The position numbers and the translations under genes are program-made. The notes beneath the pieces are model-generated. The model was not told where the DNA came from. It made no database searches and worked only from the letters and a program-made list of their open reading frames with translations. This document shows, piece by piece, positions 12,466-29,051 of a DNA stretch of 64,000 nt (position 1 is the stretch's first letter; every line of letters starts with the position of its first letter). The DNA comes from Candidatus Heimdallarchaeota archaeon (lineage in GTDB: Archaea > Asgardarchaeota > Heimdallarchaeia > Heimdallarchaeales > Heimdallarchaeaceae), in the NCBI GenBank assembly GCA_030603365.1, contig JAUVXV010000001.1, forward strand, positions 608,001-672,000. The letters are read 5' to 3'.

Positions 12466-12810
12466 GGTCAAGGGTTAGGCTAGATTAGGGCTTAATGGTA
12501 ATCTAAAAGGGAACTGCAAACTGAACAGGAAGCGAAATCCGATGTTTCAGCCCTCCCAAGGGTAATCTCGGGAACTATGGTTGAACCCCTTTTTAGATGG
12601 TTTGAACCCCCATTGGGCTTAGTTAAGACCTCCTAAGCCTGAAATCCCCCAGAACCAGACTCGTGTTTGGTTTAACAGACATCTTCTGTCTGCCAGAATT
12701 TCAGTGGCTTGTGGGCTACTGGAATGGAACCCCCAACCAAACCCTCGAAACATCGAGCTAGAATCTCCTTCCTGTTCAGGCAGAAATCCCTCAGGGGTTT
12801 TTCTTCTTTT
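12466..12810 (+). ncRNA. Putative novel structured non-coding RNA (~330 nt)
   Basis: GC visibly above background. Long closing helix: 12521-12532 CTGAACAGGAAG / 12768-12779 CTTCCTGTTCAG, 12540-12548 CGATGTTTC / 12747-12755 GAAACATCG, plus CTGC/GCAG and GGGA/TCCC. Internal hairpins at 12481-12505, 12554-12573, 12615-12640, 12653-12672, 12676-12692 and 12702-12721, with G-U pairs favouring the + strand. Ends in a T-tract. Confidence 0.7.
12755..12796 (+). repeat. 42-bp direct repeat, copy 1 (master, 3' end of the ncRNA)
   Basis: GAGCTAGAATCTCCTTCCTGTTCAGGCAGAAATCCCTCAGGG followed by a T-rich tail. Confidence 0.97.
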
Positions 12811-12928
12811 ATTTTTGTTTATACAAAAAAAAATGATATTTTTCTTCCTTTGAGAGAATTTGGTAAAATCTAACTTGTTTTTATAAAAAGAAAATGAGTT
12901 GGGACAATAAAACTCTTAACTAATTTCT

Positions 12929-14530
12929 TTATTTTTTGTATCTCGTCTTAACAAGCGTAACTGTCCCAAGAAAAGACAATAGAACAATAAACAGACCAAA
13001 ATAAGATTCTTCAGTTTGTTCAGTTGTTGGTTTACTAGTTGCTTGGCAATCATAGTTGTAGATAAATGGATAAGGATCAGTCATGTTATAATTTCCATCT
13101 ATGACGTATTCTCCTTCTCCTTCAAAATCTGTCCAGAAGTTGCCTTGATCAGAATCATAGTCATACCACCTGTTGTTGTAATTACGATCATAAGCTTGAG
13201 AATAACCGTATTCTGTACCAGCTAAATTATTGCAGATAAAATAATTACCATAGACTTTATTCCAATTAGATTCAAAATCAGTTATACATACTCCATATTC
13301 TCTGTTTTCTTGGAAAGTGTTAGCTATAATCTCATTATTACTCGAATCTTCAAGTTTTATTCCATATCTGTTCTCGTTACAAGTATTGTTAAATATGAAA
13401 AAAGAACTTGAAACATACAAATTAATGCCATTAGTATTGTTATTACAAGTGTTATTGATTATCTGATTGTCTTCTCTATCAGGACGATCATGACTAACGA
13501 CATACATCCCATTATTCAAGTTATCATTACACTCATTATCTTGTATTAAACATGAACCGCTACGGCTAAAACGCATCCCATTCTCAATGTTTCTATTACA
13601 ATTATTCTGTTCAATAATTGAGAAATAATTTTCACTTAACCACATTCCATATGTACCATCAGAGCAGTTATTATAACCAATGTATAGATTGTTGCTATTA
13701 GCAGTAGATATTCCTACATAATTAAGTCTGAGGTCATTTCTATACATAGAAACATTGTAAAGTCCGTAAAAATAGAAACCATCATCTGCAAACTGAACAG
13801 TGTTCTCAATGAGAATAGAGTCTGCAATTGCATACAAATTAATTCCATATCGAGAGTTTGTACATAAATTATCATAGAGAGTAAGCTGTTTAGAATATGC
13901 AAAATTCATCCCATCAATGAGATTATACAAACACATGTTTTCAGTAATAGTAAATCGATCTAGAGCCCCCCCCATTATCCCACATTTATTATCATAACAA
14001 AGATTGTTGCTGATTACACTGTCATTGGAAATAAACACACCTATTCCACCCTGATTATAAGCGCATGTATTTTCACTAATGTTTAAATTTGAACAGAAAT
14101 AAGTATAGATCCCCCACACCTCAGTATTAATACAATGATTATTATTAATATCTAATATTTGACCGGTATTATTAACAAGATAGATTCCAACGAATGTAGC
14201 AGTTATAACACAGTTCTGAATTGCAAAATTCTTAGTTGTATCTCTTATTATTATTCCTGCATCTGAGGTAGTATCAATTTCAAGATTTTGTATTAAGAAT
14301 GGATTTGTTTCAGAACCATTCCCTGGAAAGCCATAAGATAGAAAATCATCATCTGAATCTATTAGTATTGGAGAGCTTGCGATTTTAATTGAATAATCTC
14401 GTGTTTCTGATAATTCAAATAAGAGAAGATTCTTTCCCTCGAATAAATTTGTCTCATTACTCTTATGCTCTCCAGAAGTGCTGACTATCATAAATATGAT
14501 GAAAAACAAATAGATGGTTCTAGATCTCAT
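12929..14530 (-). CDS. Surface protein with right-handed parallel beta-helix (NosD/CASH-like) repeats and C-terminal TM anchor
   Basis: Signal peptide, PILIDSDDDF..YGFPGNGS..NPFLI cap, GI.L....N.I.NN.C repeats, GNFWTD..D.YP end, TEES-TM-basic tail. Confidence 0.85.
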   Translation of the reverse strand: MRSRTIYLFFIIFMIVSTSGEHKSNETNLFEGKNLLLFELSETRDYSIKIASSPILIDSDDDFLSYGFPGNGSETNPFLIQNLEIDTTSDAGIIIRDTTKNFAIQNCVITATFVGIYLVNNTGQILDINNNHCINTEVWGIYTYFCSNLNISENTCAYNQGGIGVFISNDSVISNNLCYDNKCGIMGGALDRFTITENMCLYNLIDGMNFAYSKQLTLYDNLCTNSRYGINLYAIADSILIENTVQFADDGFYFYGLYNVSMYRNDLRLNYVGISTANSNNLYIGYNNCSDGTYGMWLSENYFSIIEQNNCNRNIENGMRFSRSGSCLIQDNECNDNLNNGMYVVSHDRPDREDNQIINNTCNNNTNGINLYVSSSFFIFNNTCNENRYGIKLEDSSNNEIIANTFQENREYGVCITDFESNWNKVYGNYFICNNLAGTEYGYSQAYDRNYNNRWYDYDSDQGNFWTDFEGEGEYVIDGNYNMTDPYPFIYNYDCQATSKPTTEQTEESYFGLFIVLLSFLGTVTLVKTRYKK

Positions 14531-14549
14531 TTATTTTACCTTCTAATGA

Positions 14550-15347
14550 TTAATTTTTCTTCTTTCTAAATTTCTTGGTAAGACTAGTAATTGGTATAAC
14601 AAGTATAATAAAAATTGACATGTCTGACTGAATTATGGTTGTTGTAGGAGTTGTTGAGGGAGTTGTTGTAGATGTTGGTGTAGGAGTTGGAGTTGATACA
14701 TCATAAATTTCCGTTCTATTGGTAAATTCAAAATGATAAGTGATATTGGTGTTAGTAACATCGATAAACATTCTATATGTAACTACAGGAACAGGGACTG
14801 AGCTACAATTAGTGAAATCAAACCAAAGGGTGTATTCTCCTAAAGGGAGAGTCTTTTTTCCTTCAGGATAATTTAAAATTAACATTTCAAATGGAAAAGA
14901 TTTCTTATGTACTCCCGGAGTAATAATGAGAGATCCCGCAGGCCATTCATAAATAAAAACTAACTCAAGTTCGATACTTTTATTTTCAAGATTAGTTTCT
15001 AGATGAGGGAATGGAATTGGAGAACAACCATATGTACCAGTGATGTCATGTGAGGTGGGATTTTCATATTCAAGATACACATAGGTTCCAAATATTGTAA
15101 AATTGTATGAATCTTCTTCATGAAAACCTACTGAAGGAGGAAAATCGGCATCCATAATTCTCACAATTAGATATTCCTCTTCTGAAAGAACTGGAGGAAT
15201 TGCTGTACAAAATACCAAACCTAAGAGAAGTGGAATAATAATCCCCAATACCAATTTTTGATTCATTTTTATGTTTATTTTGGTTAGTAGATTTTTAGAA
15301 ATTTTCTTACTTAAAACCTCTTCAACCGTTTTCTTCTTGGGAATCAT
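14550..15347 (-). CDS. Secreted, membrane-anchored beta-rich protein (cassette family A); true start may be the internal MNQKLV
   Basis: Signal peptide after residue 28, YENP and TLPLGEYTLWF motifs shared with 15560/18674/19483, T/P linker, TM and KKFRKKK. Confidence 0.7.
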   Translation of the reverse strand: MIPKKKTVEEVLSKKISKNLLTKINIKMNQKLVLGIIIPLLLGLVFCTAIPPVLSEEEYLIVRIMDADFPPSVGFHEEDSYNFTIFGTYVYLEYENPTSHDITGTYGCSPIPFPHLETNLENKSIELELVFIYEWPAGSLIITPGVHKKSFPFEMLILNYPEGKKTLPLGEYTLWFDFTNCSSVPVPVVTYRMFIDVTNTNITYHFEFTNRTEIYDVSTPTPTPTSTTTPSTTPTTTIIQSDMSIFIILVIPITSLTKKFRKKKN

Positions 15348-15462
15348 TCTACAAACCTAAATTCTGTGTTATAGACAAACTGTTTGTTGTAATTCAACTT
15401 ACCCACATTATTTATATAAAGTACGATAAGAGTATTTCAATACAATTCATTAGATAAATTTC

Positions 15463-15504
15463 GAGCTAGAATCTCCTTCCTGTTCAGGCAGAAATCCCTC
15501 AGGG
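15463..15504 (+). repeat. 42-bp direct repeat, copy 2
   Basis: Identical to the master over 42 bp, then ATTTTTTCTTCTTTT. Confidence 0.97.
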
Positions 15505-15559
15505 ATTTTTTCTTCTTTTCTAAGAAACTAATATAAATGAAAAATACTTTGTATATTAG

Positions 15560-16228
15560 ATGAAAAGACTGTTCGCAAAAATTCTTTCTTCTTGGTTAGT
15601 TATCTCAGTTTTTGTTGCTTCTGTTCCAGCTTGCTCTCAAGCAGTCGATTCTGGTTATACTATCTATACACGTATAACGAATATTGATCTTCCTCCGAGT
15701 TTAATCTTCTATGGAAGCTATCCTAATCATACTTTCTTTGAGTTTTGGTATACTGCAGAAATAATCAATCCATCAGAGAAAAATCTATACATAATGACGC
15801 CTACAACTTGTCTAACTTTCATCAATGAAAATTTATCTTTCGAGAATGAATCTTACGATGGTTTTGTGTGGGGTGATCCTAAGCTATGTGGTCAATCTAT
15901 TACTAATCACACAATTGAACCTGGGATTTTGGAAGGACAACTGACATTTGAACTCTCTGTGAATGATACATTAAAGACTCTCCCCAATGGGAATTTCACC
16001 GTCTGGATTCAGTTTCATGATTATTTAGAGGAACACGAGTATATTTATTTCAAATCAACTATTGCAGTTAATGACTCGAATATCACAATAACACATGAAG
16101 GTGCAGATGTCATATTTACCTTTCCTTCAGTGTCTGCCCTCCCCAAAGAAATATCTATTTTTCTGACATTTTTAGTTATAGGACTTCCAATAATTTTTCT
16201 TGTAAGAAAACGATCACAAATGGTCTAG
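15560..16228 (+). CDS. Secreted, membrane-anchored protein (cassette family A)
   Basis: Signal peptide, YTRIT.I.LPP..PNHT.FEF.YT.EIINP, TLPNGNF.VWI, C-terminal TM and RKR; TATAAAT 22 nt upstream. Confidence 0.75.
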   Translation: MKRLFAKILSSWLVISVFVASVPACSQAVDSGYTIYTRITNIDLPPSLIFYGSYPNHTFFEFWYTAEIINPSEKNLYIMTPTTCLTFINENLSFENESYDGFVWGDPKLCGQSITNHTIEPGILEGQLTFELSVNDTLKTLPNGNFTVWIQFHDYLEEHEYIYFKSTIAVNDSNITITHEGADVIFTFPSVSALPKEISIFLTFLVIGLPIIFLVRKRSQMV

Positions 16229-16256
16229 TTCTTTAGTCTAATTGAATTGAGACATC

Positions 16257-16298
16257 GAGCTAGAATCTCCTTCCTGTTTAGGCAGAAATCCTTCAGGG
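16257..16298 (+). repeat. 42-bp direct repeat, copy 3
   Basis: 2 mismatches to the master; match extends 5' through ACATC. Confidence 0.95.
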
Positions 16299-16363
16299 TT
16301 TGTTCTTCCTTTCCTTATGCTTTCAAACAATATTACAGAAAGCTTTTATTTCTTCAAAAATAG

Positions 16364-16975
16364 TTGACCTTGATATCTATGAGCAAAGATAGTATTTCTC
16401 TAAATATGCTTACCTTAGCTAGTGATCCATTAAGAATATCAATCTGGTTTGAAATCCAAAGAAAAGCTGGAATTACTGCAAAAGAAATAATTCAAAAACT
16501 TAAACTTGAAGGTACTAATATCTACTATCATCTTAATAAACTTGAAAGAAGTAGATTGATTGTATCAGAATCTAAACCCGTTCCAAAATCAAATTTGTTA
16601 GAGAAATATTATAGCATAAATGTGGCTTTTTTTGCACCCGAGGAATGGAAAGCAAGATTTGACATAGGTAAATCAACAAAACATTTGAAGGATATGATTC
16701 TATACAATTTGTATTTCAACATGTTTTTGATTAACAAACAGATTATTGACGTTCAAGAACAAACTAATGAACAGATTCAGAAGAATATTGAACAATATGG
16801 TAAATTTGTCTCTAAATTTATTTTTCTGCAAAAGGATGACTTACCAAAAGTGAGCGCGAAAATAGATGAGTTCTTTGAATTTTTAAACCAAATCAAAAGA
16901 GACGCTGATAGGGATCCAATAACCGATATCAGTGATGCAACAGATACAATTCTTATCAACCTCCTCCCACTCTAA
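16364..16975 (+). CDS. ArsR-like winged-helix transcriptional regulator
   Basis: DPLRISI...TAKEI...L.L...NIYYHL.KLE...LI...EKYY. Confidence 0.8.
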   Translation: MTLISMSKDSISLNMLTLASDPLRISIWFEIQRKAGITAKEIIQKLKLEGTNIYYHLNKLERSRLIVSESKPVPKSNLLEKYYSINVAFFAPEEWKARFDIGKSTKHLKDMILYNLYFNMFLINKQIIDVQEQTNEQIQKNIEQYGKFVSKFIFLQKDDLPKVSAKIDEFFEFLNQIKRDADRDPITDISDATDTILINLLPL

Positions 16976-17060
16976 TCTCTATTTAAGAAAATACATTCCA
17001 ATATATTTGAGCGCTACAACAAATTTAAATAAGCTTAATTGTTCTTAAATATGTGTTTGT

Positions 17061-17840
17061 GTGGTTTTAAGGATGAATAATTCCAAGAATGATCACAAGA
17101 AGTATCACCAAAGTCTGATGAGGAAACAAAAGAAGTTATACCCAAATCCAGGTGAAGTTCTTTTTGAATCAGAAACCAAAGCCAGAATAGGTAAGAAACC
17201 TTTCCGAAAAACACTCAAAATTTCTTCCAAAAATAAGATACTTTTACAGGTATGTTCTTCTATTTTATTTTTCACTCTTTTTTATGTTTATGTCACCACT
17301 CACCACTCATCCAATGCATTATTATTTTTGATTGCTTTCACCCTGCTCTATGTTTTTACTTCTACAATTCTATTCGGTTCTTTAATCAAATTTCTATCTG
17401 GTGAGCATTACTCTTTTGGAGTAATTTTTTCTGAATTCTTCTTTGTTATAGGTATTATGATTGGAACATTTAGTGCCTTGTACCTACCCATATTGCTCAT
17501 TCTTTTTGCATCTGAAAAAAGTGGTGAGTGGTTAAGATATGCTCTAACTACAGCTCTCGTAGTTGCACCCCTCTCGTATATATTTAGCGTCAGTTATGAA
17601 TTTCTTAGAAAAGAAGGATACAAAATAAGAGAAATTTTCCTGTATTTTCGAATTAAGAAGCTCAGAAGAGAGGAACTAAAGAAAGAAACACAAAAGGTAG
17701 ATATTTTTTATGAAAAGATAGGCAATATATCAGAGAACTATAAAGAAAGAATCAGTAGAACATTAACAAGAGAAGACATCATTGAGCAAAACAAAGACAC
17801 TCGAACTACTAATTCTATAAAAGAAACAAATATACAATAG
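17061..17840 (+). CDS. Membrane protein (about 4 TM), distant paralog of the next gene
   Basis: Shares ALL..., YLP..I.F.SE...EW and ..T..D.FY.. spacing with 17842 and 29661. Confidence 0.6.
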   Translation: MVLRMNNSKNDHKKYHQSLMRKQKKLYPNPGEVLFESETKARIGKKPFRKTLKISSKNKILLQVCSSILFFTLFYVYVTTHHSSNALLFLIAFTLLYVFTSTILFGSLIKFLSGEHYSFGVIFSEFFFVIGIMIGTFSALYLPILLILFASEKSGEWLRYALTTALVVAPLSYIFSVSYEFLRKEGYKIREIFLYFRIKKLRREELKKETQKVDIFYEKIGNISENYKERISRTLTREDIIEQNKDTRTTNSIKETNIQ

Positions 17841-17841
17841 G

Positions 17842-18591
17842 TTGAAATTAATGCAAGAATCAGTACTTAGCAAGACTAAAAGATTTTTCAGGAAAAATGA
17901 TATCTTCTTCAAAGTCTCTCTTTTTTTATTTCTAGCCGCGGGTACAGCATATGCATTTATTTTTGGAAACGCTCTACTTAAAATTGTAGCATCTCTATCT
18001 CTCGGAACTATGATTGCTTCATTTATCTCAAATTATGTTTTCAATTATCTTTATGGAGACGCATTCAAGCTTACACATGCAATAAATGAGATACTTTACT
18101 TGTTCCTAGGAATTCCAATAATGATCATAGCAATAGGTTACTTGCCGCTCAGTGTTTATATTCTCTTTTTTTCAACTGAAAATAATGAATGGATTGTCCC
18201 AATCTTAATTGGTATAATGGTAACAATGCAAATATCCTCTTTCATTTACATAATAAAAAGAAGGAGTAAAGAGAAAAGGAAAAATATCTTCCAGTTTATC
18301 AAATATATGTTCGACTTTAAAACAAGAGCAGAAGAGCAAAGAAAATTGCAAAAACAAACAGATCAAATAGACCGTTTCTACACAGACATGGAGAAAGTAA
18401 GGGATAGAGTAGATACCACAATGGAACGCAGTACCATAGATTTTGATGAGTTTGATTGGAAGAAAGTAAGAGGGATTAATCGAGAAGATAAAACAGAGGT
18501 AATCTGCTGGAATTGTAAAGAGACTAATAATACTAGTAATCTTGTATGTTCGAGCTGTGGAGTGGCTCTAAAGGAAAAATTATCGAGCTAG
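17842..18591 (+). CDS. Membrane protein (about 4 TM) with C-terminal zinc ribbon
   Basis: TM segments, CWNC..CSSC; close paralog of 29661-30437. Confidence 0.75.
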   Translation: MKLMQESVLSKTKRFFRKNDIFFKVSLFLFLAAGTAYAFIFGNALLKIVASLSLGTMIASFISNYVFNYLYGDAFKLTHAINEILYLFLGIPIMIIAIGYLPLSVYILFFSTENNEWIVPILIGIMVTMQISSFIYIIKRRSKEKRKNIFQFIKYMFDFKTRAEEQRKLQKQTDQIDRFYTDMEKVRDRVDTTMERSTIDFDEFDWKKVRGINREDKTEVICWNCKETNNTSNLVCSSCGVALKEKLSS

Positions 18592-18626
18592 AATCTCCTT
18601 CCTGTTCAGGCAGAAATCCCTCAGGG
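18585..18626 (+). repeat. 42-bp direct repeat, copy 4
   Basis: Identical to the master; supplies the TAG stop of ORF 17842-18591. Confidence 0.97.
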
Positions 18627-18673
18627 GTTTTACTTCTTTCTTTGGAATTAATAAACTATTTAAGGTCAGAATA

Positions 18674-19348
18674 GTGAGTATATTGATGAAGAGATTTCAC
18701 AAGAATTTAATTTCCTTCTGTTTTGTTTCCCCTTTGATACTTACTTACATTGTTTCATTTACTCAGGCTTCAACTTCTGGTTATACAATTTATACACGAA
18801 TAACTGATATAACTCTCCCTCCAGAGATAGTTGAGAAAACTTTCTTCCCTAATCATACAGCGTTTGAATTTGATTATACTGGAGAAATCATAAATCCCAC
18901 GGGGATTGATTTGTTTATCTGGACACCAACTACTTGCTTAGTTCATAATACTGGAAATATAACTTTTGAAAATGAACAAAATGATGGTCACATTCTCGGG
19001 GGAGAAACCCTCTGTGGACAGGCATTCACTCAACATAAGATACCTCCTGGAATTTCTGAAGGAACATTACCCCTTTACATTTCTATAAATGGTACAGTTG
19101 AGACTCTCCCAAATGGAAATTACTCTGTATGGATTGTCATACCTGATTGTGAAGATCAACATGATTATGTTCATTATCCGTCAATTATCTCAGTTTCAAA
19201 TTCTAATATTGTAACTACTCATACTGGAGCAAATATGACTTTCACTTTCCCATCTGTACCCTCATTCCCTCCCCTTCCAGTTTATTCCTTATTTGTTTTC
19301 TTTATTTTGTTGACTATTATACATTACATTAGAAAAAGAAAAATATGA
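18674..19348 (+). CDS. Secreted, membrane-anchored protein (cassette family A; likely start 18686)
   Basis: Close paralog of 15560 (SGYTIYTRIT, TPTTCL, LCGQ, TLPNGN, FTFPSV); TATTTAAG 22 nt before ATG 18686. Confidence 0.75.
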   Translation: MSILMKRFHKNLISFCFVSPLILTYIVSFTQASTSGYTIYTRITDITLPPEIVEKTFFPNHTAFEFDYTGEIINPTGIDLFIWTPTTCLVHNTGNITFENEQNDGHILGGETLCGQAFTQHKIPPGISEGTLPLYISINGTVETLPNGNYSVWIVIPDCEDQHDYVHYPSIISVSNSNIVTTHTGANMTFTFPSVPSFPPLPVYSLFVFFILLTIIHYIRKRKI

Positions 19349-19382
19349 TTTATGATCAAATGCTGTAATTTTCTTCAACATC

Positions 19383-19424
19383 GAGCTAGAATCTCCTTCC
19401 TGTTCAGGCAGAAATCCTTCAGGG
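19383..19424 (+). repeat. 42-bp direct repeat, copy 5
   Basis: 1 mismatch; match extends 5' through AACATC. Confidence 0.96.
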
Positions 19425-19482
19425 GTTTTTCTTCTTTTCTTTGCCTATGTTTTAAATACCTGTTTGTCAAAATTGTATACTG

Positions 19483-21136: not shown

Positions 21137-22765
21137 TTATTTATTGTATCTCGTTTTAACAATCACAACAGTCCCAAGGAAAGATAATAGAACAATGAAA
21201 AAACCAAAAGAAGATTCTTCAGGTGGGTCAGTTGTTGGTTCACTAGTTACTTGGCAATCATAATAGTATTCAAATGGATAAGGATCCGTCCTATTGTGGT
21301 TTCCATCAATTTGATACTCTCCTTCTCCTTCATAATCGTTCCAATAATTCCCTTCATCTGTTGCGCTTTCATACCATCTATTGTTATATCCTTCATCATA
21401 AGCTTGAGAAAAGCCATGCTCTGTACCATTTCTGTTATTGCAGATGAAATAATTGTGATGTATCTTGTTCCAAGTTGACCAATCCCAAATCTTTATCCCA
21501 TATTCTATATTTTCTTGTAAGATGTTATATGAAATTGTTGTGAAATCTGTTTCCTCAAGTATAATGCCATTTTGATTATTTTTGCATGTGTTATTGGCTA
21601 TTGTTAGTGAATCAACTTCCCTTAAGCGAATTCCAATATTGCTATCACTACAGGTATTTAAAACAATACTGGGAGTTCCTTTATAGATTGTAATTCCATA
21701 ATCAACATTTCGAATTACAGTATTGTTCAGTACTTGAGTTGCTATGCTTGTGTGAATATCAATTCCTGCATATTCATTATCATAACAGTAGTTATTTTTG
21801 ATTATTGATGCAGAATCAGCGATAATATCTATTCCTGAGGTGCTGGAATTACATGTGTTTTCTTGAATAGTCATTTCTTCAGTGTAAGCCATCCTAATGC
21901 CATAATGACTTTCAGTACAGTAATTTTTCTGAATTGTAGCTAGAGAAGAATATTGACAATAAATTCCCCAATTTGTATTTTCACAAGAATTTTCAGATAT
22001 TGTACCTAAACTAGATGAAAGAAAACTTATCCCCCACCATGAACTGGTAACAGTATTCGAAGTAGCATTGACCGAATTCGAACCTAAAATATGAATACCT
22101 GCATTGTTTGCGGAATAGCAATAATTATCTTCAATTATAGAATTGTGTGTTTGAGATAATGCAATTCCGAAGTCACTGTTATAACATTCATTATTCTTTA
22201 TTATCTCGTGGTTTGAATAGTAACATACAATTCCTACAGCACCACCACTGCACTTGTTGTTAGATATGGTTACATAATTTGTTGAATAGATGTAAATTCC
22301 ATACCACTCATCTCCATGACAAACATTATTGCTAATCTCAATATTTTCAATAGTGAGATCACTTATGCTTATTGCTGATACATTTGCATTCACTGTGCAG
22401 AATTGAATTTTGAAATGCTTTGTGACATTTGTAATAAAAATTCCGAATTCCAGATCTGTTTCTATTGTGTAGTATTCTATAAGATACGGTTCTTCCTCAG
22501 TTCCAATTCCAGGAAAACCATACGAGTCGAAATCTTGGTCATTCAGTATGATAATGGGGTCTAGATAGGACAATTTAATATTATATTGATGTTCATAAAC
22601 AGAATTACTGTATTGATCTATTGATCTTCCCCCTTGATTTGTCAATTCAAACTGTTGCATGTTTAGGATTGTTATAAGCATTAGAAGGATATAAAAGAAC
22701 TTAATAGATCTTAATGTTCTACTCTTCATAATATTCTGTCCTCTATATGTAATAATGTCATTCAT
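21137..22765 (-). CDS. NosD-like beta-helix surface protein
   Basis: Same cap, repeat, GNYW and EES-TM architecture; close paralog of 22772. Confidence 0.85.
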   Translation of the reverse strand: MNDIITYRGQNIMKSRTLRSIKFFYILLMLITILNMQQFELTNQGGRSIDQYSNSVYEHQYNIKLSYLDPIIILNDQDFDSYGFPGIGTEEEPYLIEYYTIETDLEFGIFITNVTKHFKIQFCTVNANVSAISISDLTIENIEISNNVCHGDEWYGIYIYSTNYVTISNNKCSGGAVGIVCYYSNHEIIKNNECYNSDFGIALSQTHNSIIEDNYCYSANNAGIHILGSNSVNATSNTVTSSWWGISFLSSSLGTISENSCENTNWGIYCQYSSLATIQKNYCTESHYGIRMAYTEEMTIQENTCNSSTSGIDIIADSASIIKNNYCYDNEYAGIDIHTSIATQVLNNTVIRNVDYGITIYKGTPSIVLNTCSDSNIGIRLREVDSLTIANNTCKNNQNGIILEETDFTTISYNILQENIEYGIKIWDWSTWNKIHHNYFICNNRNGTEHGFSQAYDEGYNNRWYESATDEGNYWNDYEGEGEYQIDGNHNRTDPYPFEYYYDCQVTSEPTTDPPEESSFGFFIVLLSFLGTVVIVKTRYNK

Positions 22766-22771
22766 TGTTTT

Positions 22772-24364
22772 TTATTTTCTATATCTTTTTGTAGTAACAA
22801 CAACAGTCCCAAGAACTGATAATACAATAATGAGAAGACCAAAGTAAGATTCTTCAGTTGGTACGATTGTTGGTTCACTAGTTACTTGGCAATAATAATA
22901 GTATTCAAAGGGATAGGGATCAGTGTTGTTATCTTTTCCGTCAATCTGATACTCTCCAATCCCTTCATAATCGTTCCAATAGTTCCCTTCATCTGTAGAG
23001 CTTTCATACCATCTGTTATTATACCCTTCATCATAAGCTTGAGAAAAACCATGCACAGTACCATTTCTATTGTTGCAGATGAAGTAATTGTGATGAATTT
23101 TATTCCAGGTTGACCAATCACCAATCTTGATTCCATATTCAATATTCTCTTGTAGAATATTGTAGGAGATGGTTGAAAAATCTGTTTCGGACAGAACAAT
23201 TCCTTTTATATTCATTGCACAAGTATTGTTAGAAAGAGTAATTGATTGTACTCCTGTTATAGATATTCCAATTCTATTGAAACTGCAATTGTTCAGAAGG
23301 ACATTAGGAGAGCCTTTATAAATTGTAATGCCCGATAATTTATTCATAAAAAGCGAATTGTTTGTTACCGAAGTAGATATGCCTCTCCAGATATTTATAC
23401 CATACTCAGAATTACTGTAGCAAACATTGTTTCGAACTTGAGATTCGGAATCTTCATCAACTGCAATACCTTGTTGACAAGAATGACACTCATTTTCTGA
23501 AACATTTATCTTTCCAGTGTGCCAAAGTTCAATACCTGCAATACTATTTATGCACAAATTTCTATCTATAACTGCTCTATTTGAATATTCTGCCAATATC
23601 CCCCAAAATGTATTATTACAAAAATTATCAGTTATATAACCAAAACTGGAACTAATGAAGTCTATTCCAAAACCTGACTTATAAACTGTATTTCGAGAGA
23701 TGTTAATATAGCTAGAATACATAATGTGAATTCCAGCATAACTGTTGTGATGGCAGTAATTATCTCCAATATAGGAGTTATCGGTTTCATATAGGGCTAT
23801 ACCAAAATCATTGTAAATGCATTCATTATTCTCGATGAACTCATTATTTGAGTACCAACAAACAATCCCTACTGCACCTCCTCTGCACCAATTATCAGTT
23901 ATTATCACATAATCTGTTGAATAAATATAGATTCCATACCATTCTTCTACTTGACAAACATTATTTCGAATTTCTATATTCTCTACTGTTAGATCACTAA
24001 CGCTGATTGCTGATACACTTGCATAAACTACACAGTATTGGATTTTGAAATGCTTGGTAGTGTTTGTAATAAATATCCCAAATTCCTCATCTGTATCTAT
24101 TGTGTAGTTTTCTATAAGATAAGGCTCTTCTTCTGTTCCTTGACCTGGAAAAGCATAATAAATGAAATCTTGGTCATTGATTATAATTATAGGATCACTC
24201 ACGGTTAGTTTAACCTCATTAAATATTTCCACTGAAGATATCTGTTCAATATTATCATGTTCCATATCCTTAGAAATTTCATCGCTATTTGCATAAAAAA
24301 ACAATAAAATAATCAAACTGACGTAAATAACTCTCTTTTTTCTCTGATTCATACATTTCCTCAT
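22772..24364 (-). CDS. NosD-like beta-helix surface protein
   Basis: Same architecture; C-terminal ~110 aa nearly identical to 21137. Confidence 0.85.
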   Translation of the reverse strand: MRKCMNQRKKRVIYVSLIILLFFYANSDEISKDMEHDNIEQISSVEIFNEVKLTVSDPIIIINDQDFIYYAFPGQGTEEEPYLIENYTIDTDEEFGIFITNTTKHFKIQYCVVYASVSAISVSDLTVENIEIRNNVCQVEEWYGIYIYSTDYVIITDNWCRGGAVGIVCWYSNNEFIENNECIYNDFGIALYETDNSYIGDNYCHHNSYAGIHIMYSSYINISRNTVYKSGFGIDFISSSFGYITDNFCNNTFWGILAEYSNRAVIDRNLCINSIAGIELWHTGKINVSENECHSCQQGIAVDEDSESQVRNNVCYSNSEYGINIWRGISTSVTNNSLFMNKLSGITIYKGSPNVLLNNCSFNRIGISITGVQSITLSNNTCAMNIKGIVLSETDFSTISYNILQENIEYGIKIGDWSTWNKIHHNYFICNNRNGTVHGFSQAYDEGYNNRWYESSTDEGNYWNDYEGIGEYQIDGKDNNTDPYPFEYYYYCQVTSEPTIVPTEESYFGLLIIVLSVLGTVVVTTKRYRK

Positions 24365-24367
24365 TTT

Positions 24368-26002
24368 TCATCTTATCCGTTTATTATGATTCTTGTATCT
24401 CCTTTCCTTTTTATATCGCATTTTAGCAATCGACATAGTCCCAATAAATGATAATACAACAGTAAGAAGACTTAAAGAAGATTCTTCTGTTGGTTCAGTT
24501 ATTGTTTCTGTTGTTATACACTCAAAATAGTATTCAAATGGATAAGGATCAGTCATATTGTATTTACCATCTATTGAGTATTCTCCTTCTCCTTCATAAT
24601 CTGTCCAAAAATTGCCTGTGTTTGAATCAAAATCATACCACCTATTGTTATAACTACGATCATAAGCTTGGGAAAAACCGTATTCTGTACCAGCTAAGTT
24701 ATTGCAGATAAAGTAATTGCCATAGATTCTATTCCATGTAGATTCAAAATCTGTTATACATACTCCATATTCTCTGTTTTCTTGGAAAGCATTAGAAATT
24801 ATCTCATTATTACTCGAATCTTCAAGTTTCATTCCATATCTGTTCTCGTTACAAGTATTGTTAAATATGAAAAAAGAACTTGAGACGTACAAATTAATAC
24901 CATAAGTATTGTTATTACAAGTGTTACTGATTATCTGATTGTCTTCTCTATCAGAACGTTCATGTCTAAAGACATACATCCCATTGTCCAAATTGTCATT
25001 ACAGGTGTTATTCACTACTAAGCAAGAACCACTTGAACGCAAGTAAATTCCATCCCGTGTATTATTGTTGCAGATATTATGATCTATTAATGAAGACTGA
25101 CTTTGAGTTGTCCAAATTCCGTATGTACCAGCAGAACAGTTGTTATAAACAATGTCAACACCATAAGTACCATGGTTATCTATTCCAATATAAGTGAAGA
25201 CAATATTATTTCTAATCACTGTAATGTTTTTAAGATAGGAAAGAGTAAATCCATTGTCCGAATATTCAATGGTGTTTTCTGAGAGAATGGCATCTTCTAC
25301 TGAATATAAATCGATCCCAATTCTAGTGTTTGAGCAAAAATTATTTTGTAGGTTTATATTTTTTGAATATGCTTGATTTATACCAATTTTGAGGTTGTAT
25401 ACACAATAATTGTTCGTTATTATTGTGCCTTCTGCACCCCCTCCTATTATACCATATTCATTATCATAGCAGAGATTATTTACAATTTTACTATAGTTAG
25501 AATAAAAAACTCCTATACCTGCTTGAGTATAAGCACAAGTATTATTGGAAATAGTCAGGTTTGGGCAAAGAAAAACATATATCCCATAAATGGCGCTATT
25601 TGTGAAATGGTTGTTGTTGATTGAAGAATAACTTCCTGTGTTATTAAATAGATGAATACTTGTGGCACTTGCACTTACACTGCAATTGAAAATGACAAAA
25701 TTCAAGGTTGTATCTCTAATAAATATGCCAAAATCTGAATCTGTTTCAATCTCTAGATTTTGTATTAAGAATGGATTAGTCTCAGAACCATTCCCTGGAA
25801 GACCATAAGATAGAAAATCATCATCTGAACCTATTAGTATAGGAGAGCTTGCGATTTTAAATGAATAATCTCGTATTTCTGATAAATCTAATAAGAAATG
25901 ATCCTTTCCCTCGAATGAATTTATCTCTTTACTCTTGTAATTACCAGAAGTGCTGACTAGCATAAATACGAAAAGAAACAAACAGATGGTTCTAGATTTC
26001 AA
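24368..26002 (-). CDS. NosD-like beta-helix surface protein (TTG start)
   Basis: Close paralog of 12929 (shared N-terminus and DREDNQII..SQAYDR block). Confidence 0.85.
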   Translation of the reverse strand: MKSRTICLFLFVFMLVSTSGNYKSKEINSFEGKDHFLLDLSEIRDYSFKIASSPILIGSDDDFLSYGLPGNGSETNPFLIQNLEIETDSDFGIFIRDTTLNFVIFNCSVSASATSIHLFNNTGSYSSINNNHFTNSAIYGIYVFLCPNLTISNNTCAYTQAGIGVFYSNYSKIVNNLCYDNEYGIIGGGAEGTIITNNYCVYNLKIGINQAYSKNINLQNNFCSNTRIGIDLYSVEDAILSENTIEYSDNGFTLSYLKNITVIRNNIVFTYIGIDNHGTYGVDIVYNNCSAGTYGIWTTQSQSSLIDHNICNNNTRDGIYLRSSGSCLVVNNTCNDNLDNGMYVFRHERSDREDNQIISNTCNNNTYGINLYVSSSFFIFNNTCNENRYGMKLEDSSNNEIISNAFQENREYGVCITDFESTWNRIYGNYFICNNLAGTEYGFSQAYDRSYNNRWYDFDSNTGNFWTDYEGEGEYSIDGKYNMTDPYPFEYYFECITTETITEPTEESSLSLLTVVLSFIGTMSIAKMRYKKERRYKNHNKRIR

Positions 26003-26005
26003 TTA

Positions 26006-27532
26006 TTATACCTTCCAATGATGCATTTTTCTTCTTCTTACCAAAAAAGTAACCCCTAAGAAATAAAAACTTATGTAGACTAATTTTGGAGTTAGTGCTT
26101 CTTCTGTCTCTACAGGTGTCTGCGTTGGAGTTGTTGTAATTTCATATCTAAATGGCTCGGCATTAGGATAACGATCTACGAAATCTTCTCCACCATCTAT
26201 TGTATAATTTCCTTCTCCGATATAGTCTGACCAGTAATTTCCTAGTTGATTCTCTTCATCATACCAATGATTATTGAATCCTTCATCGAAACATTGAGAG
26301 AATCCAGAAAGCATTTCAGCATTATTGTTGATAAAATCGTTATAGAAGATATCATTTTGCCAACTCCAAGTTGAAAAAATACCAAAATCACTATTATTTT
26401 CCAGAATATTGTAGTGTATCGAATTATAGCTTGCATATTCTAAATGCATACCATATTCAAGGTTATTAGAAAAAGTATTATTTGCAATCATTCTTCGGTT
26501 TGCATCTTTTATCTTGATTCCAATTCCATTGAATTCACAGAAATTATTAACGAAATCTGATGGTTCGTTTACATCGAATTCATTATCAGATATTTTAATC
26601 CCATATAGGCCATTATGATTACATGTGTTATTTTTTACAAGAAGATACTCCCCTGCAACAAAACTCATTCCAACCTCTAAATTATATTCACAGATGTTAT
26701 TAGTAAAATTACTAGATATCAAACCTCTACTTGAAATCCCAGTTAAAATGCTATTTGAGAAGTTATTGCCAGATATTACTGAATTAGGGCAAGATTCAAT
26801 ACTTAATCCTACATTACAATTGATGCATGTATTGTTTAGAATCTTATTAGAGCGGGAATATTTAATTTTAATCCCATAAAATGTGTCTTGACATAAGTTA
26901 TCTTCTAAGATGATGTTTCTACTGTCACCACATACGATTCCTGCACAAGTATTATCTGTTATATTAGAGTATCCCGCACAATCAATGTCAATCTGCCCCC
27001 AAAAACAGCTGTTATTGACCACAGAAGAATACGGTACATCCCTAAGAATAATCCTACAGGATTTGTACTGAAGTATATTATCGTGTAGAACTACACCTGC
27101 TGACTCTCTGATCCATATTGCTGTATAATTGCAGTGAGTAATGGTATTATTAAGGATAGATATGGTATTGGTACCAACATTTGTCACCATTATTCCTCGT
27201 GTTCCTGTTAAGTGACAATTTCTTATAACAAAATGTTTTGTAGTATCCTGAATTAAAATGGCGTCTTGTACATAACTTATGATGTTTAGATTTTCAATGA
27301 TGTAAGGGCGAGTGTTATTTCCATACCCCGAAAAACCATAATCAGTAAAATTATCGTCTGAAATTATCCGAATCGATTCATGGTTAGAATATGCTTTAAT
27401 TTCAGGAAAACTAGTTTGAAAAACATTATAAGACTCCCCTAAAATTTGAAATTTGGATTCAGATGTTGAAATCGTGAAAATAAGCATTGATAGAATTATC
27501 ATTAAAAATAGGTTGTTTTTTTTGTTCATCAT
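26006..27532 (-). CDS. NosD-like beta-helix surface protein
   Basis: I.IISDDNF..YGF.G.G...PYIIENL cap, repeats, GNYWSD, TEEA-TM-RRRK. Confidence 0.85.
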   Translation of the reverse strand: MMNKKNNLFLMIILSMLIFTISTSESKFQILGESYNVFQTSFPEIKAYSNHESIRIISDDNFTDYGFSGYGNNTRPYIIENLNIISYVQDAILIQDTTKHFVIRNCHLTGTRGIMVTNVGTNTISILNNTITHCNYTAIWIRESAGVVLHDNILQYKSCRIILRDVPYSSVVNNSCFWGQIDIDCAGYSNITDNTCAGIVCGDSRNIILEDNLCQDTFYGIKIKYSRSNKILNNTCINCNVGLSIESCPNSVISGNNFSNSILTGISSRGLISSNFTNNICEYNLEVGMSFVAGEYLLVKNNTCNHNGLYGIKISDNEFDVNEPSDFVNNFCEFNGIGIKIKDANRRMIANNTFSNNLEYGMHLEYASYNSIHYNILENNSDFGIFSTWSWQNDIFYNDFINNNAEMLSGFSQCFDEGFNNHWYDEENQLGNYWSDYIGEGNYTIDGGEDFVDRYPNAEPFRYEITTTPTQTPVETEEALTPKLVYISFYFLGVTFLVRRRKMHHWKV

Positions 27533-28797
27533 TGAGCCACTTCCAGGCTTGAACCTTTTCTCTTTCTTCTCCTTATAACTTGAAAAAGAAATGCTGATTC
27601 AATTAGTAGTAAGCACCATAAATCAAAAGATAAAATGGATGTATGAGGTGTTGATGTCATATGTAGTATATTTTCAAAGGTCTTCAGTTTTAGTTTATAG
27701 GTCCTTTCTTCAGTTGTTGAGTTATAATATTCTTCGAAAACATAAAATGATGTTACTGGATCTGAAAGGCTATACAGTCTTAAAATTGTTGAGCCATATG
27801 GATATGTTTCCATATGTACAAGGTTACCATCAGCTGAAAAGATTTTCAGAACACACACCGTAGTTCCATGTTTAGTACTAGTTTTCATAACATAATACTC
27901 CCCATTGAAATGACAATCAAAATAATACGAACTCATTGTTTTAGTTTCCAAAGTAAAATTGTTGACCAACTCATTATCATAAGATATCTGAGAAGCAAAA
28001 GTGGGTCCATATGTGTAATTTGTGTAAATAACACTAATTCCCTTTTCATATAATGAAATTGAGTGAATTTCTTGACTTAGTTTTCTATGCCAAACAACAG
28101 ACCTATTATTGGTATCTATTTTTAATATATCATCTTTGTAAGCAACAAACAAATCTCCTTTGTGGTTTTCAGCAAATTTCCAATCTAGGAAAGGTCTTGA
28201 TCTAGTATAATTCATCGTATTTATAGTTGTGAAACTTACTTCCCAGTCATAATATCCTGTCTCATTGAATGCATAAATCGTCGTATTTGTATAGTTGATA
28301 TCATCTATTGAGAAGAAACCTTCAATTCTTCCAAGGTAGAAATTGCCTTTATTTGAAAGCCCAATCTCATTTAGATAAATAGTATCTAATGTTATTTTTC
28401 TTATTAAACTCATATTTGAATCGAATTTGATATACGTACAATTGTATTGATTAGGAGGCCAAACCATATACGTGAAAATATTCCCATCATCATCCATAAT
28501 CGGATCGTTGCTGAAATCAGCATTGTTTTTGGGAGCATTAAGTATTTCGTTCCCATTTTTGTCAAATTTAAGAAAGTGTATGTACCCTTCGTACATTGCA
28601 TCTAATGTAAGTAGTGTATTTTGATATTTATCAATTCCATGGCTTTCCATACTTCGAACAACCATATACTTGTACATTTCTCCAAACTCAATTTCCCAAA
28701 GATCCTCAGCTGTATTATCTAAAGATTGAATTGGAATAACTGAAATACATAAACAAATCAACAAGAAATAACATATAATTTTCTTCTTGGGTATCAT
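27529..28797 (-). CDS. Secreted, membrane-anchored protein, probable beta-propeller
   Basis: Signal peptide, KFDKNGNE / DDDGNIF / FNETGYYDW / FSADGNLV blade-like motifs, TM and RRRKRK. Confidence 0.6.
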   Translation of the reverse strand: MIPKKKIICYFLLICLCISVIPIQSLDNTAEDLWEIEFGEMYKYMVVRSMESHGIDKYQNTLLTLDAMYEGYIHFLKFDKNGNEILNAPKNNADFSNDPIMDDDGNIFTYMVWPPNQYNCTYIKFDSNMSLIRKITLDTIYLNEIGLSNKGNFYLGRIEGFFSIDDINYTNTTIYAFNETGYYDWEVSFTTINTMNYTRSRPFLDWKFAENHKGDLFVAYKDDILKIDTNNRSVVWHRKLSQEIHSISLYEKGISVIYTNYTYGPTFASQISYDNELVNNFTLETKTMSSYYFDCHFNGEYYVMKTSTKHGTTVCVLKIFSADGNLVHMETYPYGSTILRLYSLSDPVTSFYVFEEYYNSTTEERTYKLKLKTFENILHMTSTPHTSILSFDLWCLLLIESAFLFQVIRRRKRKGSSLEVAQ

Positions 28798-28913
28798 TTT
28801 ACTTACCTTAGTTTTTTGAAATAGAGAAGCTATTTTCTATAATAAGGTATTTCCACAATATATATTAAAAGCTAGATGAGAGTATTTCAATACAATTTGT
28901 TAATCGAATTTTA

Positions 28914-28955
28914 GAGCTAGAATCTCCTTCCTGTTCAGGCAGAAATCCCTCAAGG
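28914..28955 (+). repeat. 42-bp direct repeat, copy 7 (distal)
   Basis: 1 mismatch; its tail TTTTTCTTCTTTTATTTT matches the master's tail furthest. Confidence 0.96.
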
Positions 28956-29051
28956 GTTTTTCTTCTTTTATTTTGGTTTCATTTAGCTGATTACTCTTGT
29001 AAAACTAGTGAAGTGAAAATGATTTTATAGGGTTGTATTTTCTTTTTATCT

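What the first reader, a model, noticed from the sequence alone, without database searches (positions are those of the whole stretch)
12466..28969. Integron-like cassette array built on the 3' end of an unknown structured RNA gene
Seen: a 42-bp sequence plus T-tail occurs seven times in direct orientation (12755, 15463, 16257, 18585, 19383, 20140, 28914; 0-3 mismatches, first 19 bp invariant), and I found no copy elsewhere in the 64 kb. Only copy 1 has its base-pairing partner (12509-12548), so copies 2-7 are isolated 3' fragments of the RNA. The intervals (about 2.7, 0.75, 2.3, 0.75, 0.7 and 8.7 kb) hold whole genes, mostly surface proteins. Known: integrases that target tRNA/tmRNA genes restore the gene and leave its 3' end as a direct repeat, and repeated events give tandem arrays. 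Inference: this is a site-specific gene-capture array that uses a novel ncRNA as attB and stockpiles variable cell-surface genes. Single-gene 0.7-kb cassettes are too small to be autonomous, so a recombinase acting in trans is implied.
Basis: partly seen in the sequence, partly recalled or inferred. Interest (0 to 1): 0.95.

Follow-up and report, generated by a model that had tools for sequence, protein, structure and literature searches.

The report
Gene cassettes stacked behind circular-RNA gene
In a Heimdall (Asgard) archaeon, six packets of mostly surface-protein genes have been inserted one after another behind a conserved small RNA gene, each leaving a copy of the gene's last 60 or so bases, with no integrase in sight.

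Summary
Seven direct copies of the RNA gene's last 55-66 bp lie at 12749-28973. There are none elsewhere in the 3.65-Mb genome.

The RNA is real. It is single-copy, conserved across one Heimdallarchaeota family and absent from Rfam. It is flanked by a bulge-helix-bulge (BHB) splicing motif supported by compensatory changes, which predicts a 266-nt excised RNA. This scan had already found the same RNA family on other DNA (e1-4778004).

Relatives share the flanks (PAC2-RNA ... ELP3-fibrillarin-Nop5). Between them lies anything from 0.1 to about 20 kb, and synteny breaks exactly at the repeats. Cassette order differs between species. Other genera have RNA-ELP3 with a single copy.

Array-mates are not sister genes. 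Each repeat carries its own species' RNA variant and is far better conserved than neighbouring homologous non-coding DNA. So recombination at the repeats is continuing.

It is not an integron: no IntI, no attC-like fold, and no integrase in about 25 cassettes examined. The same genome also stacks duplicated 3' ends of fhs and other genes around the same cargo families. That argues against a recombinase dedicated to this 42-mer and favours homology-driven or multi-target insertion. The mechanism is unproven.

Verdict: a new variant of accretion at a gene's 3' end. Interest 0.62.

The parts
11621..12340 (+). PAC2-family gene; conserved left flank of the locus
   Evidence: Pfam PF09754, E 3.8e-18. 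Lies immediately upstream of the RNA gene in all genus relatives examined.
12466..12810 (+). Gene for a conserved non-coding RNA flanked by a BHB motif, with a TATA-like box at about 12455-12465 and a T-tract terminator from about 12801
   Evidence: No Rfam hit. It is not RNase P or SRP RNA, which lie elsewhere. Single copy. Found in 22 of 24 genus genomes and, by motif, in 4 further genera of the family. 16 of 49 predicted pairs show compensatory changes.
12509..12532 (+). 5' strand of the BHB: outer helix GGGA(+A), central helix CUGC (12514-12517), bulge AAA (12518-12520), inner 12-bp helix (12521-12532)
   Evidence: Invariant in 18 genus homologues. Compensatory changes in other genera: AUGU/GCAU, CUAC/GUAG, GUGU/GCAC.
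12520..12785 (+). Predicted excised RNA, probably circular, 266 nt, with C-rich GAACCCC motifs and an invariant GACCUCCU hairpin loop
   Evidence: Inferred from canonical BHB cleavage positions. The genome has two EndA-domain genes and RtcB. Circularity was not tested here; an earlier scan report on another genome states it (e1-4778004).
12749..12814 (+). Repeat copy 1: the true 3' end of the RNA gene (3' strands of the terminal helices, 3' splice bulge, trailer, T-tract)
12815..15457 (-). Cassette 1: NosD/beta-helix surface protein (12929-14530), convergent with the RNA gene, plus a 265-aa secreted protein with an MIPKKK leader (14550-15347)
   Evidence: Pfam NosD and Beta_helix. Both ends are homologous to the ends of the NosD module in cassette 6.
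15458..15521 (+). Repeat copy 2
15522..16251 (+). Cassette 2: one secreted 222-aa protein (15560-16228); its stop codon lies 21 nt before the repeat
16252..16316 (+). Repeat copy 3; shares a C-to-T variant and the longer left edge with copy 5
16317..18579 (+). Cassette 3: winged-helix regulator (16364-16975) and two membrane proteins (17061-17840, 17842-18591). The last has a zinc-ribbon match below the Pfam cut-off and takes its TAG stop codon from the repeat
18580..18644 (+). Repeat copy 4
18645..19376 (+). Cassette 4: secreted 224-aa paralogue (18674-19348). Its nearest relative lies elsewhere in the genome (C14:56011), not in the array
19377..19442 (+). Repeat copy 5
19443..20135 (+). Cassette 5: secreted 214-aa paralogue (19483-20127). 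Its sister is a cassette gene of another species (L065)
20136..20199 (+). Repeat copy 6, the most decayed (3 mismatches in 42)
20200..28910 (.). Cassette 6, composite: a 237-aa gene (20321-21034, +) joined without a repeat to a module of four NosD-like genes and a 422-aa MIPKKK-leader gene (21137-28797, -)
28911..28973 (+). Repeat copy 7. With its right flank it matches the RNA 3' end and flank of relative G023
29052..32682 (.). Further genus-specific island genes without flanking repeats. They include 30538-31371: an acidic N-terminal tract plus a serine-integrase 'Recombinase' domain, with no catalytic domain
33056..34648 (+). ELP3 gene; conserved right flank. It lies close behind the RNA gene in other genera of the family (one short S30e-like reading frame intervenes in g4)

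Best explanation
The locus is an accretion island. DNA packets, each made of a promoter plus one or a few genes (mostly secreted or surface proteins), have been inserted serially at the 3' end of a conserved RNA gene that is processed at a BHB motif and is probably circular.

Each insertion is a single-crossover (Campbell-type) recombination between the gene's terminal ~60 bp and a matching 'handle' carried by the incoming, presumably circular, DNA. This leaves the RNA gene intact and adds one more direct copy of its 3' end.

Later recombination between the copies deletes, reorders and exchanges cassettes. It also keeps the copies like the resident RNA gene.

No cassette encodes a recombinase, so the enzyme is supplied by the host. 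I judge it more likely to be homology-driven recombination, or a process that acts at many targets, than an integrase dedicated to this sequence. Roughly: 0.8 that this is a recombinational cassette array; within that, about 0.55 homology-driven against 0.3 dedicated site-specific.

Shown: the repeats, the RNA and its BHB, breakpoints at the repeats in relatives, cassette shuffling, non-sister cassette genes, species-matched repeats, and parallel arrays at other genes.

Inferred: circular intermediates, direction of insertion, and the enzyme.
For: 1. Seven co-oriented copies at this locus only.
2. Relative G023 aligns continuously from the RNA into the flank of copy 7. The window therefore has a 16.1-kb insert bounded by 60-70-bp direct repeats.
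3. Family-wide synteny is SBP-(PAC2)-RNA-ELP3-HTH-Fib-Nop5. Genera g2, g3 and g4 have the RNA next to ELP3 with a single 3' copy. Genus g1 genomes have 0 to 5 extra copies.
4. Order differs between species. G003 has RNA-R-[158 aa]...[SecY]-R-core, whereas G006 has [SecY]-R-[158 aa], with homology ending at the repeat. L065 has the two secreted-protein cassettes in the reverse order to the window.
5. Cargo is diverse: SecY paralogue, metallo-beta-lactamase fold, SH3, RING finger, methyltransferase, NosD and others. None of about 25 cassettes holds an integrase.
6. Array-mates are not sisters on the tree: 19483 pairs with L065 at 100/99, and 18674 pairs with C14:56011 at 95/99. This rules out recent in-place duplication.
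7. Extra copies carry each species' own variant of the GAGYNAGAATNNCC segment. Copies 2 and 7 agree at 58 of 60 positions, while their homologous left flanks are only ~77% identical.
8. Distal copies tend to be more decayed (G003, G013, L070).
9. The same genome stacks 3' ends of fhs: 353 nt at 84% nucleotide but about 93% amino-acid identity with an open frame, then 131 nt at 74%. A 133-nt pair on C12 flanks a NosD-like gene and a 405-nt pair lies on C15.
10. The genome has one Xer-like tyrosine recombinase, three IS607-type TnpA genes and two small serine recombinases that are conserved family-wide, including in genus g4 where no array is seen.
Against: - No circular cassette, empty-site read or strain-level variant of this species could be shown. 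Public runs are short contigs, and their joints at the repeats are ambiguous.
- Sixty base pairs is short for efficient homologous recombination, and nothing is known of Heimdall recombination requirements.
- The tidy 55-66-bp size of all seven copies, the invariant first 19 bp and the choice of an RNA gene's 3' end are what tRNA-targeting integrases produce.
- How the first gene-plus-handle unit arises is unexplained.
- A protein with a serine-integrase DNA-binding domain sits at the distal edge of the island in many relatives. This could point to a dedicated system.
- Copy 7, the most distal, is well preserved, which does not fit a simple age gradient.
- The window comes from a metagenome-assembled genome, so repeats could in principle have misled the assembler. 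Similar arrays in at least 8 independent assemblies make this unlikely.
Confidence: 0.55

Rival explanations
1. A true site-specific gene-capture system, integron-like in logic. A host recombinase acting in trans recognises the ~42-bp sequence at the RNA gene's 3' end (acting as attB/attI) and the copy on each cassette, and it inserts and excises the cassettes. Candidates are the two small serine recombinases made of a catalytic domain plus a 'Recombinase' domain (C2:49039-49797, C15:328334-329065) and the Xer-like tyrosine recombinase. The catalytic-domain-less Recombinase-domain protein at 30538-31371 could serve as a site-binding accessory.
For: - Uniform repeat length and an invariant core.
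- The target is an RNA gene's 3' end, as for tRNA/tmRNA integrases.
- The stop codon of co-oriented cassette genes lies 0-30 nt before the repeat, like an ORF-attC unit.
- The repeat haplotype travels with the upstream gene: copies 3 and 5, and copies 2 and 7.
- The only PF07508 match in the genome lies at the island's edge and is conserved there in many relatives.
- The small serine recombinases are well conserved, at 72-93% identity.
Against: - No recombinase sits in or beside any array examined.
- The serine recombinases are equally present in genus g4, which has the RNA but no array.
- The 30538 homologue is missing from G017, which has an extra copy, and present in genomes without extra copies.
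- The repeat's left edge varies from -7 to -31.
- The repeat has no convincing dyad and no attC-like fold.
- The same architecture and cargo occur at fhs and other genes with unrelated repeats of 130-400 bp.
- The conserved 20-mer of the repeat (CCTTCCTGTTCAGGCAGAAA) occurs in no viral contig.
Confidence: 0.22
2. In-place segmental duplication. An ancestral unit of RNA 3' end plus neighbouring gene was duplicated in tandem by unequal crossing-over, the genes then diverged, and the short repeats were kept alike by gene conversion from the RNA gene.
For: - Cassette genes belong to a few paralogous families.
- Cassettes 1 and 6 share both ends.
- Repeats match the resident RNA variant, as gene conversion would give.
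Against: - Array-mates are not each other's nearest relatives.
- Cargo in relatives includes unrelated genes such as SecY, RING finger and SH3.
- Cassette order differs between species.
- Other genera have no array.
- At fhs the orphan copy diverged mostly at synonymous sites, so it comes from another functional allele and not from local decay.
Confidence: 0.07
3. The copies are kept for an RNA-level role. Each serves as the 3' UTR and terminator of a cassette mRNA and carries the 3' strand of the BHB. It could pair in trans with the single 5' strand and be cut or joined by the splicing endonuclease and RtcB. More broadly, strands of BHB processing stems could mark cassette boundaries in Asgard archaea through an RNA-based step.
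For: - Co-oriented genes end 0-30 nt before the repeat, which ends in a T-tract.
- The most conserved part of every copy is exactly the BHB 3' strand.
- Other agents of this scan report cassette arrays punctuated by the 23S rRNA processing-stem strand in other Asgard genomes (unchecked here).
Against: - Two of the six cassettes face the other way, so their repeats lie upstream of promoters.
- The exon that trans-splicing would add is only about 15 nt.
- Decayed copies exist in relatives.
- The same genome shows the same stacking at protein-coding genes without any BHB.
- No RNA data for the cassettes were available.
Confidence: 0.06

Closest known systems
Tandem accretion of integrated elements at tRNA/tmRNA gene 3' ends, e.g. 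Prochlorococcus genomic islands shaped by tycheposons (bioRxiv 10.1101/2020.12.28.424599)
   Same: An island directly behind a small stable-RNA gene. Partial copies of the gene's 3' end separate successive inserts. New arrivals push older ones distally. Remnants are scattered through the island. Cargo is niche or surface related (for the paper's text).
   Different: Here the target is a BHB-flanked non-coding RNA, not a tRNA or tmRNA. None of about 25 inserts carries an integrase or replication module. Many inserts are single genes of 0.7-0.8 kb. The same genome shows the same stacking at protein-coding genes.
Integrons, including those reported in Archaea (from my own knowledge: Ghaly et al. 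2022; not read here)
   Same: An ordered, mostly co-oriented array of small cassettes of one or a few genes, each ending in a recombination repeat right after the stop codon. Content is variable between relatives.
   Different: No IntI. No attC fold or R/L boxes. The repeats are copies of a host RNA gene's end. Cassettes appear to have their own promoters, and some are inverted.
pdif / Xer-dependent modules of Acinetobacter plasmids (from my own knowledge; not read here)
   Same: Small modules, often a single gene, without a recombinase of their own, bounded by short sites and moved by a housekeeping enzyme acting in trans.
   Different: pdif sites are 28-bp XerC/XerD sites in alternating orientation. 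Here the repeats are about 60 bp, all direct, with no clear dyad.
BHB-excised circular RNAs of archaea, e.g. circular SRP RNA of Thermoproteus, excised tRNA introns, circular pre-rRNA intermediates (paper list; earlier scan report e1-4778004)
   Same: A canonical helix-bulge-helix-bulge-helix motif flanks the functional RNA. The genome encodes the endonuclease and RtcB.
   Different: The RNA matches no described family, and its function is unknown. None of the papers found links such an RNA gene to a cassette array.

Membership tests
Integron | An intI tyrosine recombinase gene next to the array | tested here: not met
   The genome has a single PF00589 gene (C11), with a SAM-like N-terminal domain of Xer type and far from the array. 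No recombinase was found in arrays of the window or of more than 10 relatives. The assembly is 89% complete.
Integron | attC sites: imperfect palindromes that fold as single-stranded hairpins | tested here: not met
   Folding two copies of the repeat as single-stranded DNA, both strands, gives z-scores of -1.2 to +0.8 against shuffles. The best dyads are 6 of 7 or 7 of 9 matches.
Integron | Array of small cassettes whose content varies between relatives | tested here: met
tRNA/tmRNA-type integrative element array (genomic island accretion) | Direct repeats equal to the 3' end of the target RNA gene, with the gene left intact | tested here: met
tRNA/tmRNA-type integrative element array (genomic island accretion) | An integrase gene, or a remnant of one, within the inserted elements | tested here: not met
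   No Phage_integrase, Resolvase or transposase match in any cassette ORF scanned. The one Recombinase-domain protein (30538-31371) lacks a catalytic domain and lies outside the repeats.
tRNA/tmRNA-type integrative element array (genomic island accretion) | Excision to a circle and re-integration | not testable with these tools
   Only short assembled contigs were available. Joints at 19419->28912 and loose ends at 12834, 15523 and 28959 are suggestive but ambiguous.
Archaeal BHB-processed RNA | Helix, 3-nt bulge, 4-bp helix, 3-nt bulge on the opposite strand, helix | tested here: met
   Canonical in genera g2, g3 and g5. In this genus it is relaxed, with one extra A opposite the 3' bulge; in g4 the outer helix is weak (G-U pairs). 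The central and inner helices keep pairing through compensatory changes.
Archaeal BHB-processed RNA | Cleavage by the splicing endonuclease and ligation or circularisation | not tested
   Two EndA-domain genes and RtcB are present. An earlier scan report on another genome claims the ring form.

The most novel reading that the evidence does not exclude
Asgard archaea possess an undescribed, integrase-free way of pasting gene cassettes behind highly expressed stable-RNA genes. The recombination site would be the 3' strand of a BHB processing stem: here the circular-RNA trailer, and in other Asgard genomes of this scan the 23S rRNA trailer. That would imply either a dedicated host recombinase (perhaps the family-conserved mini serine recombinases together with the Recombinase-domain-only protein) or an RNA-guided or RNA-templated step.
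Probability: 0.12. Interest if true: 0.9.

Novelty: new variant of a known kind. Interest (0 to 1): 0.62.

Why it matters
Asgard archaea are the closest known relatives of eukaryotes, and little is known of how they gain and shuffle genes.

This locus shows a clear, repeatable pattern in one Heimdall genus. Surface-protein and other accessory genes are stockpiled and reshuffled behind a conserved RNA gene, with no recombinase on board. The same signature occurs at other genes of the genome.

If the process is homology-driven, it is a simple way for cells to trade 'plug-in' surface genes within a species. If a dedicated enzyme exists, it would be a new recombination system with a defined 42-bp site.

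The locus also gives a precise marker (PAC2-RNA ... ELP3) for following strain-level variation in sediment metagenomes. It adds context to an abundant circular RNA of unknown function.

Tried and rejected
- **Rfam**, at gathering and at permissive thresholds: no family for the RNA. ARAGORN: no tRNA or tmRNA in the window. RNase P and SRP RNA identities are rejected because both lie elsewhere.
- **MITE or generic terminator** is rejected: no copy outside the locus.
- **Viral contigs**: the conserved 20-mer has 0 matches, so no virus or plasmid attP was found.
- **Laying public runs**: four DNA runs, all short Logan contigs at low depth.
  - Joints 12820->14545 and 19419->28912, and loose ends at 12834, 15523 and 28959, fall at or near repeat edges.
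  - The sides are only 21-39 nt long and the repeats are alike, so I do not count them as evidence of excision or of alternative arrays.
  - The joint 12661->18583 is probably a relative's shorter RNA mapped to another copy.
- **RNA runs**: the 8-kb stretch had no RNA holder listed. The RNA gene alone is held by 16 RNA runs, but the single read-laying run was already spent, so no back-splice junction was examined.
- **Phylogenetic profile of the small serine recombinase**: present family-wide, including genus g4 without arrays, so it does not discriminate.
- **23S rRNA tail array in this genome**: not testable, because the 23S gene is cut by a contig end.
- **C16:98431-102985 repeats**: looked at and not interpreted.
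- **Covariance model** of the full RNA was not built. A motif search was used instead.
- **Protein-atlas look-up** of the 222-aa cassette protein gave only leads below 0.9 (DUF7490, CARDB).
- **Literature**: no report of this RNA or of such arrays in Heimdallarchaeota in the papers searched.

Full report
**1. The observation**

The 42-mer occurs seven times on the + strand at the stated coordinates, with 0-3 mismatches. Shuffled sequence gives none. The first 19 bp are invariant.

- Spacings are 2708, 794, 2328, 798, 757 and 8774 bp.
- Homology extends beyond the 42-mer to 55-66 bp, including a T-rich tail.
- The window is G000:C1:608001-672000. The 3.65-Mb assembly (89% complete) has no other copy on either strand, even at 8 mismatches.
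- The complementary 5' strand is unique.
- A profile HMM finds exactly seven copies and no relics further downstream.

**2. The RNA**

Rfam gives nothing. RNase P RNA and SRP RNA are elsewhere in the genome.

The gene is found in 22 of 24 genomes of the genus by BLAST. By a conserved motif it is also found once per genome in four further genera of the family. These include two complete genomes, which from my own knowledge I take to be the published Heimdallarchaeum genomes. Record titles name Heimdallarchaeota MAGs.

The terminal stem contains a bulge-helix-bulge motif:
- 5' strand: GGGA(A)-CUGC-AAA-CUGAACAGGAAG
- 3' strand: CUUCCUGUUCAG-GCAG-AAA-UCCC

It is invariant within the genus. Other genera keep it through compensatory changes:
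- The central helix becomes AUGU/GCAU, CUAC/GUAG or GUGU/GCAC.
- The inner helix becomes CCAGAUAGGAAG/CUUCCUAUCUGG.
- In g2, g3 and g5 the motif is fully canonical; in g4 the outer helix is weak.
- 16 of 49 predicted pairs show double changes.

Canonical cleavage predicts an excised RNA at 12520-12785 (266 nt). The genome has two EndA-domain genes and RtcB. Sixteen metatranscriptome runs from several studies hold 39-55% of the gene's sampled words. I could not lay those reads.

An earlier follow-up of this scan on another genome describes the same family as an abundant circular RNA (e1-4778004). My results agree, but I did not test circularity. Each repeat therefore holds the last ~31 nt of the mature RNA, the 3' splice bulge, the trailer and the terminator.

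**3. Comparative anatomy**

Flanks are conserved: SBP-SBP-PAC2-RNA on the left, ELP3-HTH-fibrillarin-Nop5-subtilase on the right.

- In genera g2, g3 and g4 the RNA lies close before ELP3 (a short S30e-like reading frame intervenes in g4), and only one copy of the 3' strand exists in those genomes.
- Within the genus, the gap between the RNA and the next conserved gene is as small as 128 bp (G007), while the RNA-to-ELP3 interval is about 20 kb in this window.
- Extra co-oriented 3' copies occur in G003 (5), G013 (2), and G005, G016, G017 and G021 (1 each). They also occur in several metagenome contigs.
- G023 aligns without a break from the RNA into the gene that follows copy 7 here. Its RNA end matches copy 1 on one side and copy 7 plus flank on the other. 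Relative to G023, the window therefore has a 16.1-kb insert bounded by direct repeats.

Order is not conserved:
- In G003 a 158-aa gene follows the RNA and a SecY cassette is last.
- In G006 the SecY cassette is followed, across one repeat, by that 158-aa gene. Nucleotide homology stops at the repeat.
- In L065 the two secreted-protein cassettes are in the reverse order to the window.

**4. The cassettes**

In the window:
- two NosD/beta-helix modules on the minus strand;
- three single-gene cassettes of a secreted ~220-aa family;
- a three-gene cassette (HTH regulator plus two membrane proteins);
- a 237-aa gene fused to the large NosD module without a repeat.

Relatives add a SecY paralogue, a metallo-beta-lactamase fold, an SH3 protein, a RING finger, a PEMT/ICMT-like methyltransferase and SBP fragments. 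No integrase, transposase or replication gene was found in any cassette.

Co-oriented genes stop 0-30 nt before the repeat, and one takes its TAG from the repeat. The next gene starts 40-120 nt after it.

The three secreted paralogues of the window are not sisters on the tree:
- 19483 pairs with a cassette gene of another species (100/99).
- 18674 pairs with a gene elsewhere in the same genome (95/99).

The array was therefore not made by recent local duplication.

**5. Evidence for ongoing recombination**

- Each species' extra copies carry that species' own version of the variable GAGYNAGAATNNCC stretch.
- The secreted-protein cassette with a 'long-edge' repeat is found in four species.
- Copies 2 and 7 agree at 58 of 60 positions, while the homologous promoter flanks beside them are ~77% identical.
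- The nearest species are only 72-76% identical in the neighbouring coding DNA. Neutral relics older than the species would be far more decayed than 0-3 mismatches in 42.
- Distal copies tend to be more decayed in G003, G013 and L070, though copy 7 here is not.

Taken together, the copies are either young or continually renewed by recombination with the RNA gene.

**6. The enzyme**

The genome has:
- one tyrosine recombinase with a Xer-type domain make-up;
- three MerR-HTH/resolvase proteins (IS607 type);
- two 243-252-aa serine recombinases with a catalytic and a 'Recombinase' domain.

The two serine recombinases are 72-93% identical across the family, including genus g4, where there is no array. 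Their distribution therefore says nothing.

The protein at 30538-31371 has only the Recombinase domain behind an acidic tract. It often sits at the island's distal edge. However, it is absent from G017, which has an extra copy, and present where there are none.

The repeat has no convincing dyad and does not fold like attC. Its left edge varies from about -7 to -31 between cassettes. No viral contig carries the conserved 20-mer.

**7. A wider pattern**

First-reader notes on this genome led me to check other loci.

- fhs (C3:91985-93859) is followed by two orphan copies of its 3' end, of 353 and 131 nt, with a convergent NosD-like gene between.
- The 353-nt orphan is 84% identical in DNA but about 93% in protein, and its frame is open. 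It therefore diverged as part of a working gene in another lineage and was imported or displaced.
- Similar pairs flank a NosD-like gene on C12 and lie on C15 and C7.

These repeats are unrelated in sequence and up to 400 bp long, and two of the loci (fhs, C12) carry the NosD-like cargo family of this array. A recombinase specific for the 42-mer cannot explain them. Single-crossover insertion through whatever homologous 'handle' the incoming DNA carries can.

Other agents of this scan report cassette arrays punctuated by 23S-trailer copies in other Asgard genomes (unchecked). This genome's 23S 3' end is missing.

**8. Verdict**

The array is real and is a hotspot where gene packets are inserted, lost and reshuffled at copies of the RNA gene's end. 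It works like the accretion islands at tRNA/tmRNA genes and resembles an integron in layout. It fails the defining tests of both: no integrase and no attC.

I favour homology-driven or multi-target host recombination over a dedicated site-specific enzyme, but neither is shown. The decisive data are long reads of this species and recombination assays.

Noticed in passing
window 12600-12640 (hairpin loop around 12616-12626): The RNA's most conserved hairpin shows GACCUCCU in its loop, invariant in all five genera. From my own knowledge this resembles the anti-Shine-Dalgarno end of 16S rRNA. With the repeated GAACCCC motifs it hints at a decoy or sponge role. Synteny with ELP3, fibrillarin and Nop5 is family-wide.
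   Followed up: partly
G000 C3:87665-93859: The fhs gene has two orphan copies of its 3' end stacked downstream: 353 nt at 84% nucleotide but about 93% amino-acid identity with an open frame, and 131 nt at 74%. A convergent NosD-like gene lies between. The orphan diverged mostly at synonymous sites, so it looks like an imported or displaced functional allele.
   Followed up: partly
G000 C12:37612-40209; C15:42987-44788; C7:113538-117889: Further pairs of 130-410-bp direct repeats in which one copy is the end of an intact gene and the other an orphan. They flank inserted genes; the one on C12 is NosD-like. On C7 the duplicated piece is the gene's 5' end.
   Followed up: partly
G000 C2:49039-49797 and C15:328334-329065: Two 243-252-aa serine recombinases made of a catalytic domain plus a 'Recombinase' domain, with no zinc-ribbon domain. 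Each is single-copy and 72-93% identical across the whole family, which looks more like a host gene than a mobile one. The C2 gene sits next to NosD-like and MIPKKK-family genes.
   Followed up: partly
window 30538-31371: A 277-aa protein: about 140 residues of almost pure Glu/Asp/Val/Leu, then a serine-integrase Recombinase domain without the catalytic domain. It is kept at the distal edge of the island in many genus relatives.
   Followed up: partly
L024 (G003) 9797-11080 and L062 (G006) 1142-2440: A full-length SecY paralogue (Pfam E 1e-50) is carried as a single-gene cassette between two repeats, at different array positions in two species.
   Followed up: partly
L027 (G017) 6647-7123: A RING-finger protein (zf-RING_2, E 2e-8) forms a 0.65-kb cassette directly behind the RNA gene in another species.
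   Followed up: no
G000 C8:14-2006: The 23S rRNA gene is cut at about model position 2008 by a contig end, so its 3' trailer is missing from the assembly. Repeats there could be the cause.
   Followed up: no
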